64,000 nt of DNA from Sphyrna mokarran (lineage: Eukaryota). A program made the position numbers. The stretch covers positions 45,632,001-45,696,000 of the forward strand of contig JAGIQG010000013.1 of assembly GCA_024679065.1 (NCBI GenBank), given 5' to 3'. Position 1 is the stretch's first letter, and each line of letters starts with the position of its first letter. Shown piece after piece: positions 22,001 through 25,000 of this stretch.

Positions 22001-25000
22001 TATCTGTGCGGGTTTCCTCCAGTGCTCCTGTTCCCTCCTAGAGTGCAAAGATGTGTGGGTTAAGTGGATTGGCCATGCTAAATTGCCCCTTAATGTCAGG
22101 AGGACTAGCGAGAGTAAATGCGTGGGTTAATAAGGATAGGACCAGAGTGGGATATGGCCTCCTTCTGCATTTTAGGGCTCTATGATTCTATGAGCCAACT
22201 TCTCTTCAGCTGCAAAAATAGGACTGAAAACTCCTAGGCTATTTGGTTTCTCGAAGATAAATCTAACCAATATCATTATTTGCAAAATATTTACAAACTT
22301 GAATAACACACTACAGTCCTTTGCATTATATTTCTTGAGGGTAAATCAGAATATAGAGAGAGAGACCATTATTGCAGAGTGTTGACGATCAAGTTGTGGA
22401 GGGATTTCTCTGGCCTCCCTGCAATGTGTTTCATGTGGCAGATGTTGAGATGTTCACTGGCGGTGGGATTTTCAGGTCCCACTGCTGTCAATAGAATTTT
22501 CCACTGAATCCACCCCACACCATCGGTAAAACCTGAGGTGGGGGTGTGCCATTGGTGGGATTGGAAGATTTTTTTGGCATGAACAGCCAGAGAATTCTAG
22601 CCATAGAAACAAAACCTGGACAGAATTTGTTTCATTCACTAGAAAGATGTTTCAGTCATGATTTCAAGTGTTTCTCATTCATAGGTTAGATCCAGTTTTG
22701 GCATTTGCCATTGAGCCTCTTGTACTTGTCTTGTAGTTAATAGTTGTTTAGTCTTTTGAAATGCAGATGTTGAACTCATGATTTTCAAGTTATTCTCTAA
22801 GCTCTTGTAATAGCCAATTTAACTATAAAGCTGCTCAAAGCAAGGTTATAAATATAATTAATTGCAAATCTGTATGGTTTTTTAAACATTCTCATCAATG
22901 CAGATTTGAGATAAACTTTAAATTTTGGGCTAACATATGGATATACTGAGAAACTCATTCTTTGCCTGCTTCTTTCAAATAATTTTTTTGTTAATAGATG
23001 GTAGGAAATATTGAATTACTATGAATTATTCGAAAGAAGCAGGCAAAGAATGAATATCTCAAAATGTCCATATGTTAGTCCAAAATTTAAAGTTTATCTC
23101 AAATCTACATTGATGAGAACATTTAAAAAAACCATACAAGATTTGCAATTAATTATATTTATAACCTTGCTTTGAGTGGCTTTATAGTTAAATTGGCTGT
23201 TACAAGGGCTTAGAGAATAACTTGAAAATCATGAGTTCAACATCTGCATTTCAAAAGACTAAGCAACTATTAACTACAAGACAAGTACAAACAAGAGGCT
23301 CAATGGCAAATGCCAAAACTGGATCTAACCTATGAATGAGAAACACTTGAAGTCATGACTGAAATATCTTTTTAGTGAAACAAATTCTGTACACGATTCC
23401 CAGTTGATGATTCTATTTTCATGTCTTTTAGCAATAAACATTCAAAATACATCTTTAACACATTATGCAAATTATATAATGTGTGATATGTTATTTATTA
23501 TGCATGTGCATTGATAACATAAACAATTTTTTGTATCAGATGCTACTTGGTAAATTTTTTTTCAGTGACTGCGTTTTATACTCTTCTCCAACAGTTTTGA
23601 ATAAATTGCATTGATACAGTGTCTTTAATTTGGAATTAAAATTTCCTTAGGCATTTAACAGATAAAAAGTAACTGCTGAGCAAAACAAAAAGAAAATATT
23701 TAATTAAATGGCAGGTTTGAAGGAAGAGGAAGAGGTTGAAAGGTACTAAAGTAGGTGTCTGACCTGCCCACTCAGAATTCTTCAGGTGACCTACAGTGGC
23801 TGCTAACCAAAGAAAATTTATTGGAGCCAGGAGGAACAGAAGTATTCCATTTCCCTCACCCTTGACAGTGCAGTCCTGATAATTATGCTTCTGCACCAGA
23901 ACCTGCCCTAAACTGCATCCCAAAACTTAGCTGAGGGCTGTTTCTGGTGTGGAAAGCAGTTGGAATTGAATTTTATCCAATGAAATAGGCTACTTGGAGA
24001 TAAAACTCAGTAATTTCCTACAACAATATATGTTTACCAATCAATATTGAGTCAGCCAGCATGCTATTAATTCCACTTCTAAAATTGAGGTGAATAACCC
24101 ATAGATAAAATTTTAATTTCCTTTCGTTTGTGATTCACAAGCTATGGAATTCAATTCATAGAAATATTTTTTAAAATGGCTTTCTTTAATTTAATTATGG
24201 ATCCTGAAGAGGGCAATTTTCAAAGTAGTAGATGGCAAGTTCCAGGTGATGACAAAATAATGGAATACCTGCATTTTTAAAGCAGGATTTTTTTAAAATT
24301 CTTATCAGTGATTCACTTAAAATGAAAATAAATTGGCATCACTAGCAGCAGCTCACAATTTTCACACTCTCAGGCCAGGAGAAATTAGGCTTAATACATC
24401 CAGAAAAGTAAGCTATTCTGACATACCAATGCTCCTTAATAGAATGCCTGAACCGAGACATCTCTTGCACACCCTAAGTGAGACAATAGTTGTGACATTT
24501 ACTGAAGAACATTGGAAGGTTTCTGCTGTGGCCCTACAGCAACAATTACCCCAGGGTATTACACATTTGAATTCCTTCAGTTGTCAGAGGGAAGATACTT
24601 TCATCTCATATATCTAAATTGATTCCAGGTCTCGGATAGGAAGAAGTGGAAAGACTTCCCACACTGTCATTCAGCAACCAATTAGTTTGAATCAATAACA
24701 GGTTATTTATTAAACCTAACATAACTTGTTTTAATCACAGTGACCAAATGCTTAGACTGAGGAGTAAGAAGGAAACCTGTGAACATTCGGAATGTGTGAA
24801 TAACACTGCTTTGTAAGTTCTGTAGGTCACATACTAATAGCAGTTCAATTACATGTTCAGGGATTGATAACTCTGTTCCAGATAAAACCAGCCCAGGTCA
24901 GCAGTGGGGTATAAATACAACGGTTGCTGGCAGTATAATGCAATTACCCCTATTATTGCTACAAAAAATCCATTCAAACTTCGGGGAAAACTCGTTTAGA

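What the first reader, a model, noticed from the sequence alone, without database searches (positions are those of the whole stretch)
22620..23390. ~770 bp near-perfect palindrome built from sequence that does not look like a transposon
Seen: two ~365 bp arms about 94-95% identical by manual count, a 39 bp spacer, no TSD that I could find, and no match to other repeats in the window. Known: long short-spacer palindromes are unstable (cruciforms) and, if transcribed, form long dsRNA that ADAR and Dicer act on. Inference: this is an uncatalogued foldback element, an old fold-back duplication, or a hairpin-RNA/endo-siRNA locus. Divergence between the arms argues against an assembly artefact.
Basis: partly seen in the sequence, partly recalled or inferred. 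Interest (0 to 1): 0.7.

Follow-up and report, generated by a model that had tools for sequence, protein, structure and literature searches.

The report
Old 777-bp hairpin repeat, shark-like genome
A real, decaying 777-base inverted repeat in non-coding shark- or ray-like DNA, most likely a dead transposon made almost only of its two long ends or else a local inverted duplication, and ordinary either way.

Summary
The palindrome is real. The arms are 22617-22984 and 23024-23393 with a 39-nt spacer: 345 matches, 19 mismatches and 10 gap columns. No other copy lies in the 64 kb window.

The arm differences look like slow decay in the genome, not sequencing error. There are 16 transitions against 3 transversions, and 3 inferred CpG sites have decayed in 5 of 6 copies. 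An assembly artefact is therefore unlikely.

The locus is non-coding and lies among CR1/L2-like, gypsy-like and SINE debris of an elasmobranch-like genome.

Origin is not settled, because no eukaryotic genome collection was available.
- **Dead long-TIR, non-autonomous DNA transposon (about 0.45).** It is 777 bp and AT-rich, has CAG...CTG near its ends with TA on one side and GA on the other, and carries a ~50-nt direct repeat twice in each arm.
- **Single local inverted duplication (about 0.35).** This fits the lack of a clean target-site duplication and of any second copy.

Nothing supports a hairpin-RNA or siRNA gene, but transcription could not be tested.

Interest is low. A BLAST of one arm against the source genome would decide the origin.

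The parts
22617..22984 (.). Left arm of the quasi-palindrome (368 nt, 31% G+C, 0 CpG)
   Evidence: Local alignment; the repeat finder blocks I1, I2, I3; composition and CpG.
22985..23023 (.). Non-palindromic spacer (loop), 39 nt, AT-rich
   Evidence: left unpaired or weakly paired in the folds.
23024..23393 (.). Right arm, reverse complement of the left arm (370 nt, 1 CpG)
   Evidence: E = 5.5e-127.
22621..22623 (+). CAG, candidate transposon terminus. It is preceded by GA; the palindrome continues 4 nt further out.
   Evidence: Sequence. The reading as a Tc1/mariner-type end is recalled knowledge, not a tool result.
23387..23389 (+). CTG, mirror of the candidate terminus, followed by TA
   Evidence: Sequence.
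22628..22676 (+). Outer copy of a ~50-nt direct sub-repeat in the left arm
   Evidence: (D4). The gapped score of 20 is reached by 2 of 200 shuffles and by 5 of 170 other 368-nt tiles of the window.
22745..22797 (+). Inner copy of the direct sub-repeat in the left arm, about 117-120 nt from the outer copy
23338..23382 (-). Outer sub-repeat mirrored in the right arm. Coordinates were mapped by hand through the, 10 alignment.
   Evidence: Alignment coordinates.
23213..23265 (-). Inner sub-repeat mirrored in the right arm
   Evidence: (hit 23245-23213) and the mapping.

Best explanation
This is the dead remnant of a non-autonomous cut-and-paste DNA transposon that consists almost entirely of its two long terminal inverted repeats (about 368 nt each) joined by a 39-nt leftover of the interior. 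It is either a foldback-style 'long-TIR MITE' or a copy that lost its interior on the spot.

Inferred mechanism: while the family was alive, a transposase encoded elsewhere bound the two ~50-nt direct repeats in each arm, paired the ends, cut next to CAG/CTG and pasted the element here.

Shown: since then the locus has simply mutated. CpGs have decayed, transitions have accumulated, four small indels have arisen, and damage is heavier near the centre. It encodes nothing.

If read through by a polymerase it would form a ~370-bp double-stranded RNA stem. That is a property of the sequence, not a shown function.
For: - **Size and content fit a non-autonomous element.** It is 777 nt with 31% G+C. 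None of the 9 ORFs of 45 aa or more that overlap it has a Pfam family.
- **Transposon-like ends.** The ends read CAG...CTG at 22621 and 23389, with TA outside on the right and GA on the left. TA + CAG is the Tc1/mariner/pogo end pattern; that is recalled knowledge.
- **Paired direct repeats in each arm.** Each arm carries two copies of a ~50-nt direct repeat about 120 nt apart, the outer one 12 nt from the tip. Only 2 of 200 shuffles and 5 of 170 other tiles of the window reach its score. Subgroups of Tc1/mariner have long TIRs with internal direct repeats, and TIRs up to 415 bp are reported. A ZB-like family with at least 100 full copies and TA duplications is reported in one chondrichthyan (PMC9777934, passages read).
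- **A second long inverted repeat in the same 64 kb.** It lies at 13658-14157 / 15289-15839 and its arms are also unique in the window. This points to a recurrent source of such structures rather than a one-off accident.
Against: - **No clean target-site duplication.** Nothing of 3 nt or more flanks the palindrome ends. The 2-nt candidate is GA on one side and TA on the other.
- **The end signal is largely cancelled.** The inverted match runs 4 nt (possibly 9) beyond CAG. If TA is the duplication, the next 2 nt match by chance at about 1 in 16.
- **No second copy found.** There is none in the window. A protein-level search with the longest ORF found no candidate. A 36-mer had 0 matches in the prokaryote genome collection. 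All three are weak tests.
- **The direct repeat is only modestly significant** and was noticed after looking.
- **IR/DR elements are reported not to make such derivatives.** No Tdr1-derived MITE was found in zebrafish. A Sleeping Beauty construct of 2 x 230 bp IRs excised at about 10% of full-length efficiency (PMC5224488, passages read).
Confidence: 0.45

Rival explanations
1. A single local inverted duplication. A replication template switch (fold-back) copied about 370 nt of ordinary AT-rich sequence back-to-front next to itself and left a 39-nt spacer. The two copies then diverged neutrally. It would be a single-copy structure with no mobility and no function.
For: - No target-site duplication and no other copy anywhere that could be searched.
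- The arms (27-34% G+C) match the AT-rich right flank (23-31% over 300 nt), while the left flank is 48-49%. That fits one arm being original sequence continuous with the right flank.
- The palindrome ends at an arbitrary-looking point 4 nt outside the CAG.
- Heavier damage towards the centre: 10 mismatches in the inner 107 nt against 9 in the outer 257, Fisher p = 0.035. The non-palindromic spacer fits too. Both suit a palindrome that survived because its centre is imperfect. Longer, more similar arms and shorter spacers are more break-prone, and inverted Alus stalled eukaryotic forks at a 12-bp spacer but not at 52 bp (PMC7999016, passages read).
Against: - The paired ~50-nt direct repeats in each arm are unexpected in random sequence (2 of 200 shuffles, 5 of 170 tiles).
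- No microhomology is visible at the inner junction (my reading of the sequence).
- A second, unrelated long inverted repeat within 9 kb would require the rare event twice in this stretch.
Confidence: 0.35
2. Two independent insertions of the same ~370-nt interspersed repeat, head to head and 39 nt apart.
For: - Many long inverted repeats arise this way (LIRBase, PMC8728187, passage on rice).
- The window itself holds an inverted SINE pair at 3302-3537 / 4035-4275 with a 498-nt spacer.
Against: - Both ends of the two arms coincide, so both copies would have to be full length.
- The arms have no A-rich or microsatellite tail and no duplications of their own.
- A family abundant enough to land twice within 39 nt should recur in 64 kb, and it does not. 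The SINE family has about 10 copies in the window.
- The arms are 95% alike, whereas the window's SINE copies are 70-80% alike.
Confidence: 0.05
3. Whatever its origin, the locus is kept as a hairpin-RNA gene. It is transcribed, folds into a ~370-bp stem, and is diced into endo-siRNAs or heavily edited by ADAR.
For: - The stem is very stable as RNA (-561 kcal/mol).
- 16 of the 19 mismatches are transitions, so on either strand many remain G:U wobbles.
Against: - No Rfam family reaches its gathering score.
- No strand preference among wobble-compatible changes: 10 against 6, p = 0.45.
- The arms match no gene or other sequence that could be a target.
- No exon was detected nearby.
- Several T-runs in the arms would stop RNA polymerase III (the rule is recalled).
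- Vertebrates are reported to lack long miRNA hairpins (PMC12553114, abstract seen in a search listing only).
Confidence: 0.05
4. An assembly or library artefact, that is a fold-back chimeric read.
For: Fold-back chimeras do produce inverted duplications in long-read data (recalled knowledge).
Against: - The arms differ at 5.2% of aligned bases, with 16 transitions to 3 transversions and paired CpG decay. Read errors are not transition-biased.
- There is a 39-nt unique spacer.
- Unique flanks lie on both sides, well inside the window.
Confidence: 0.02

Closest known systems
Palindromic MITEs derived from Tc1/mariner elements, such as human MADE1 from Hsmar1 (PMC5224488, passages read)
   Same: The element is essentially two inverted repeats joined by a short linker, with no coding capacity and strong hairpin potential. 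Such elements have seeded miRNA genes.
   Different: MADE1 has 37-bp arms and a 6-bp linker; here the arms are ten times longer. The TA duplication is not intact. Copy number is unknown.
IR/DR-type Tc1 elements (Sleeping Beauty, ZB, Tdr1; PMC5224488 and PMC9777934, passages read)
   Same: Long inverted repeats, mostly 180-300 bp and up to 415 bp, each with two transposase-binding direct repeats, TA duplications, and presence in at least one chondrichthyan. This locus has 368-nt arms and two ~50-nt direct repeats per arm.
   Different: Those elements carry a transposase gene of about 340 aa between the repeats and are reported not to give MITEs. [quoted passage not shown] The direct repeat here is weak (about 75% identity) and the arm runs about 190 nt past it.
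Foldback elements and Galileo of Drosophila (PMC4079207 and PMC3688188, titles and abstracts seen in a search listing only)
   Same: Very long terminal inverted repeats make up most or all of the element.
   Different: As I recall, Foldback arms are built from tandem sub-repeats. None is present here. They are insect families.
Long inverted repeats and hpRNA loci as catalogued in LIRBase (PMC8728187, passages read)
   Same: Same geometry: two arms and a loop, able to give a long hairpin RNA. LIRBase lists 4,590,178 such repeats in 208 vertebrate genomes, so the class is common.
   Different: LIRBase keeps only arms over 400 nt, specifically to drop MITEs and Alus, so this one (368/370 nt) would be filtered out. 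Its median vertebrate LIR is 7426 nt. No transcription or small-RNA evidence exists here.
Closely spaced inverted Alu pairs and quasi-palindromes studied as fragile sites (PMC7999016, passages read)
   Same: Arms of about 300 nt, a short spacer and imperfect identity. The same rules of hairpin and cruciform risk should apply.
   Different: Those arms are copies of a known abundant repeat inserted twice. Here the arms have no known family.

Membership tests
MITE / non-autonomous TIR DNA transposon | Terminal inverted repeats | tested here: met
   Arms of 368 and 370 nt, 94.8% identical at aligned bases. This is trivially met by any palindrome.
MITE / non-autonomous TIR DNA transposon | Target-site duplication flanking the ends | tested here: inconclusive
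   No direct repeat of 3 nt or more at the palindrome ends. GA/TA flanks the CAG...CTG ends. CTGGACA/CTGTACA matches 6 of 7 but is self-complementary, so it may be part of the arms. ATTCTA matches 6 of 6, but 16-17 nt outside, where the termini are not inverted.
MITE / non-autonomous TIR DNA transposon | Many dispersed copies in the genome | not testable with these tools
   No eukaryotic genome collection was on hand. There are 0 further copies in the 64 kb window, no candidate in the protein collection and 0 matches in prokaryote contigs. All are weak tests.
MITE / non-autonomous TIR DNA transposon | Small size and no coding capacity | tested here: met
   777 nt. None of the 9 overlapping ORFs of 45 aa or more has a Pfam family.
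Tc1/mariner, IR/DR subgroup | TA duplication next to CAG-type ends | tested here: inconclusive
   TA on the right and GA on the left. The inverted match continues 4 nt beyond CAG. The end motif is recalled, not tested against a library.
Tc1/mariner, IR/DR subgroup | Two direct repeats (transposase sites) in each long IR | tested here: inconclusive
   22628-22676 against 22745-22797, about 75% identical. The score is reached by 2 of 200 shuffles and by 5 of 170 window tiles.
Tc1/mariner, IR/DR subgroup | A related autonomous element with a DDE transposase | not testable with these tools
   No transposase-like ORF was found among the ORFs scanned: 148 of 153 ORFs of 70 aa or more and 115 of 420 ORFs of 45-69 aa. 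The genome itself could not be searched.
Foldback (FB-like) elements | Arms built of tandem sub-repeats (recalled definition) | tested here: not met
   Tandem Repeats Finder reports nothing in 22617-23393. Autocorrelation shows no period.
miRNA or other Rfam RNA family | Score at or above the family's gathering threshold | tested here: not met
   0 hits at gathering in the whole window. The best sub-threshold hit is MIR2606 at 62.2 against 139.7 bits, on both strands. These are generic long-hairpin matches.
hpRNA / endo-siRNA locus | Transcription and 21-23-nt small RNAs from the stem | not testable with these tools
   No expression data were available.
hpRNA / endo-siRNA locus | Arms homologous to a target gene | tested here: not met
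   No match in the window, no protein-level relative and no Pfam domain. The search space was limited.
Local inverted (fold-back) duplication | Single copy, with an ancestral or orthologous site holding one arm only | not testable with these tools
   This needs the source genome and related genomes.

The most novel reading that the evidence does not exclude
The locus is a hairpin-RNA gene of an elasmobranch. It would be a transcribed ~370-bp stem that feeds endogenous siRNAs or acts as an ADAR or dsRNA-sensor substrate, born from a long-TIR element or an inverted duplication. That would be a vertebrate counterpart of the Drosophila hpRNA loci.
Probability: 0.04. Interest if true: 0.65.

Novelty: new member of a known kind. 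Interest (0 to 1): 0.2.

Why it matters
It matters little on its own. Long inverted repeats are common in vertebrate genomes: LIRBase lists about 4.6 million in 208 genomes (PMC8728187). This one shows only neutral decay.

It has minor value in three ways.
- It may mark an uncatalogued long-TIR DNA-transposon family in cartilaginous fishes, whose repeat libraries still leave about 10% 'unclassified' (PMC8455134).
- It is a natural example of a short-spacer quasi-palindrome that has persisted for roughly 10-55 million years, with extra damage near its centre.
- If transcribed, it would be a strong dsRNA source.

Tried and rejected
- **Rfam.** The whole window at gathering thresholds gave 0 hits. 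The locus at E up to 10 gave only sub-threshold long-hairpin plant miRNA models on both strands, plus noise. Rejected as membership.
- **Pfam.**
  - I scanned 148 of the 153 ORFs of 70 aa or more. I dropped two low-complexity ORFs (the AC repeat and the G tract). The last three in the list were never sent.
  - 5 of the 148 had any family at E up to 0.01. Only rve passed its cut-off; RVT_1 was just below; three were noise.
  - I scanned 115 of the 420 ORFs of 45-69 aa, those between 16296 and 33121. One of the 115 gave a noise hit.
  - No exon or transposase was found, so the gene context stays unknown.
- **Search for other copies.**
  - blastn with word size 7 within the window found nothing.
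  - A protein search with the 72-aa ORF 22800-23015(-) found no candidate.
  - An exact 36-mer had 0 matches in the bacterial/archaeal genome collection, the only DNA collection open.
  - I expected all three to be near-blind to shark repeats.
- **Empty-site test from the flanks.** Only the SINE at about 21900-22150 recurs in the window. The immediate flanks are unique, so no empty site could be inferred.
- **Target-site duplication scan.** I tried all end offsets and lengths of 2-12 nt. Nothing was convincing.
- **Foldback-type tandem sub-repeats.** Absent.
- **Strand-biased preservation of pairing.** Absent.
- **Relation to the second inverted repeat at 13.6-15.8 kb.** No sequence similarity.
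- **Literature on the zebrafish 'Angel' MITE, which I recalled.** The search did not surface it, and the hits in PMC7786948 were unrelated words. I make no claim from it.
- **Structure, complex and phage/plasmid tools.** Not used, because nothing here is a protein or prokaryotic.
- **Spliced gene model.** None was built, so no joined-exon search arose.

Full report
**1. What is there**

The reported structure exists as described. Aligning the left half against the reverse complement of the right half gives arms 22617-22984 and 23024-23393. They are separated by exactly 39 nt (22985-23023). The alignment has 345 matches, 19 mismatches and 10 gap columns in four indel events. The repeat finder shows the same arms as three ungapped blocks at 97, 91 and 95%.

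This is not chance.
- The other arm is hit at E = 5.5e-127.
- The stretch folds at -561 kcal/mol as RNA and -364 kcal/mol as DNA.
- The z-scores are -46 and -42, and none of 20 shuffles is comparable.

The outer boundary is soft by about 5 nt.

**2. Not an artefact**

The 19 mismatches are 16 transitions and 3 transversions. Two adjacent double differences (TG against CA at 22832/33, CA against TG at 22887/88) and one single difference (CA against CG at 22977) are what independent deamination of an ancestral CpG in each arm produces. So 5 of 6 inferred CpG copies are gone.

The arms now hold 0 and 1 CpG against about 8.7 expected. The window as a whole has CpG observed/expected of 0.19. This is germline decay in a methylated vertebrate genome, not read error.

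Kimura distance between the arms is 0.055. At recalled neutral rates of 0.5-2 x 10^-9 per site per year, that is roughly 14-55 million years. The older end is favoured because cartilaginous fishes evolve slowly (PMC8455134, passages read). Gene conversion between the arms would make this an underestimate. The dating is inference.

**3. Context**

- The window has no N and is 39% G+C.
- The reverse-transcriptase ORF at 49927-50322(-) has 228 relatives at E up to 1e-10 among 292 candidates. Of the 120 listed, the best-scoring named ones are from rays and sharks: Mobula, Hypanus, Chiloscyllium, two Scyliorhinus, Hemiscyllium and Narcine. I take the window for elasmobranch, not human.
- Among 148 of 153 ORFs of 70 aa or more, only an integrase core (36399-36689, -) passes its Pfam cut-off. 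The RT sits just below its cut-off.
- Among 115 of 420 ORFs of 45-69 aa (16.3-33.1 kb), nothing real appears.
- No Rfam family reaches threshold anywhere in the window.
- A SINE family has about 10 copies in the window.

The palindrome therefore lies in non-coding, repeat-rich DNA. I could not tell whether that is an intron.

**4. Anatomy**

*Ends.* The left end reads ...AAAACC|TGGACAGAATTTG and the right end ...CAAATTCTGTACA|CGATTCC. Three candidate duplications turned up in an exhaustive scan.
- **GA/TA next to CAG...CTG.** This is Tc1/mariner-like by recall. However, the inverted match runs 4 nt further out, which such an element would show only by chance.
- **CTGGACA/CTGTACA, 6 of 7.** TGTACA is its own reverse complement, so this cannot be told apart from the arm tips.
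- **ATTCTA, 6 of 6, lying 16-17 nt outside.** The intervening termini are not inverted.

None is convincing.

*Inside each arm.* A ~50-nt direct repeat occurs twice, at 22628-22676 and 22745-22797, about 75% identical, and is mirrored in the right arm.
- Its score is reached by 2 of 200 shuffles.
- It is reached by 5 of 170 other 368-nt tiles of the window, and at least three of those overlap the simple repeats listed.
- I treat it as weak evidence found after looking.

There are no tandem sub-repeats.

*Distribution of damage.* Mismatches are denser near the centre: 10 in the inner 107 nt against 9 in the outer 257, p = 0.035. Transition differences that would still pair as G:U number 10 on the + strand and 6 on the - strand, p = 0.45. 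Neither transcript orientation looks protected.

**5. Relatives elsewhere**

This is the decisive question, and it could not be answered.

What could be tried found nothing.
- There is no second copy in the window.
- The protein collection gave no candidate for the longest ORF across the element.
- An exact 36-mer had no match in the prokaryote genome collection.

These are weak negatives.

**6. Weighing the explanations**

*Relic long-TIR non-autonomous transposon (about 0.45).* In favour:
- its size and AT-richness;
- CAG/CTG near the tips;
- the paired direct repeats;
- known Tc1-type elements with long TIRs carrying internal direct repeats, TIRs up to 415 bp, and a ZB-like family in a chondrichthyan (PMC9777934);
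- a second, unrelated long inverted repeat 9 kb away, which suggests a recurrent source.

Against:
- no clean duplication;
- IR/DR elements are reported not to yield IR-only derivatives, and an IR-only Sleeping Beauty construct excised at about 10% of full-length efficiency (PMC5224488).

*Single local inverted duplication (about 0.35).* It explains the lack of a duplication and of other copies. It also fits the match in composition between the arms and the right flank. Finally, it fits the damaged centre and spacer that would let a palindrome survive (PMC7999016).

*Other readings.*
- Two head-to-head insertions of one repeat: about 0.05.
- A maintained hairpin-RNA gene: about 0.05.
- An artefact: about 0.02.

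Each of these is disfavoured for the reasons listed under rival explanations.

**7. Comparison with known kinds**

In geometry it works like a palindromic MITE or a foldback element, and like any long inverted repeat. Membership in a specific family is not established.
- The Foldback-type definition (tandem sub-repeats, as I recall it) was tested and not met.
- The Tc1 IR/DR features are inconclusive.
- Rfam families are not met.

Long inverted repeats are abundant in vertebrates: 4,590,178 in 208 genomes with arms over 400 nt (PMC8728187). This one falls just under that catalogue's cut-off, which was set specifically to exclude MITEs.

**8. Verdict**

The most probable answers are both ordinary. 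Interest is 0.2. One genome-wide BLAST of an arm would settle the origin.

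Noticed in passing
window 13658-14157 and 15289-15839: A second long inverted repeat. The arms are about 500 nt with 446 matches, 31 mismatches and 97 gap columns, separated by about 1.1 kb. The arms are unique in the window, and no obvious target-site duplication is visible by eye in the printed flanks. The right arm is interrupted by a G-rich tract. It shows no similarity to the 22.6 kb palindrome.
   Followed up: partly
window 41143-41285: A small palindromic, MITE-like unit. It has 41-nt arms that are 95% complementary, with 61 nt between them. 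It is a single copy in the window, and no clear TA duplication is seen.
   Followed up: partly
window 3302-3537 and 4035-4275: Two copies of the window's SINE family lie head to head, 498 nt apart and 79% alike. This is an example of an inverted repeat made by two independent insertions. About 10 copies of this SINE occur in the window, for example at 21901-22140 and 62916-63156.
   Followed up: partly
window 14480-14720 and 22380-22616: Blocks richer in G+C, with internal inverted motifs, share a 27-nt match at 85% (14616-14642 against 22466-22492). They may be decayed copies of a small repeat. One of them abuts the left side of the palindrome.
   Followed up: no
window 49367-50654 (-), 18926-19306 (+), 36399-36689 (-): Broken retroelement genes. 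The first is a LINE-type reverse-transcriptase fragment (RVT_1, E = 4.8e-05; best named relatives are elasmobranch). The ORF at 18926-19306 looked by eye like a LINE RT C-terminus but had no Pfam match. The third is an integrase core fragment (rve, E = 7.9e-08).
   Followed up: partly
one search hit list (not the window): Close relatives of this vertebrate LINE reverse transcriptase are filed under bacterial names (Klebsiella pneumoniae, Carnobacterium maltaromaticum and two MAGs). This looks like fish or shark DNA contaminating those records.
   Followed up: no
window 10029-10077 and 15521-15599: An (AC)24 microsatellite and a G-rich tract of about 60-80 nt.
   Followed up: no
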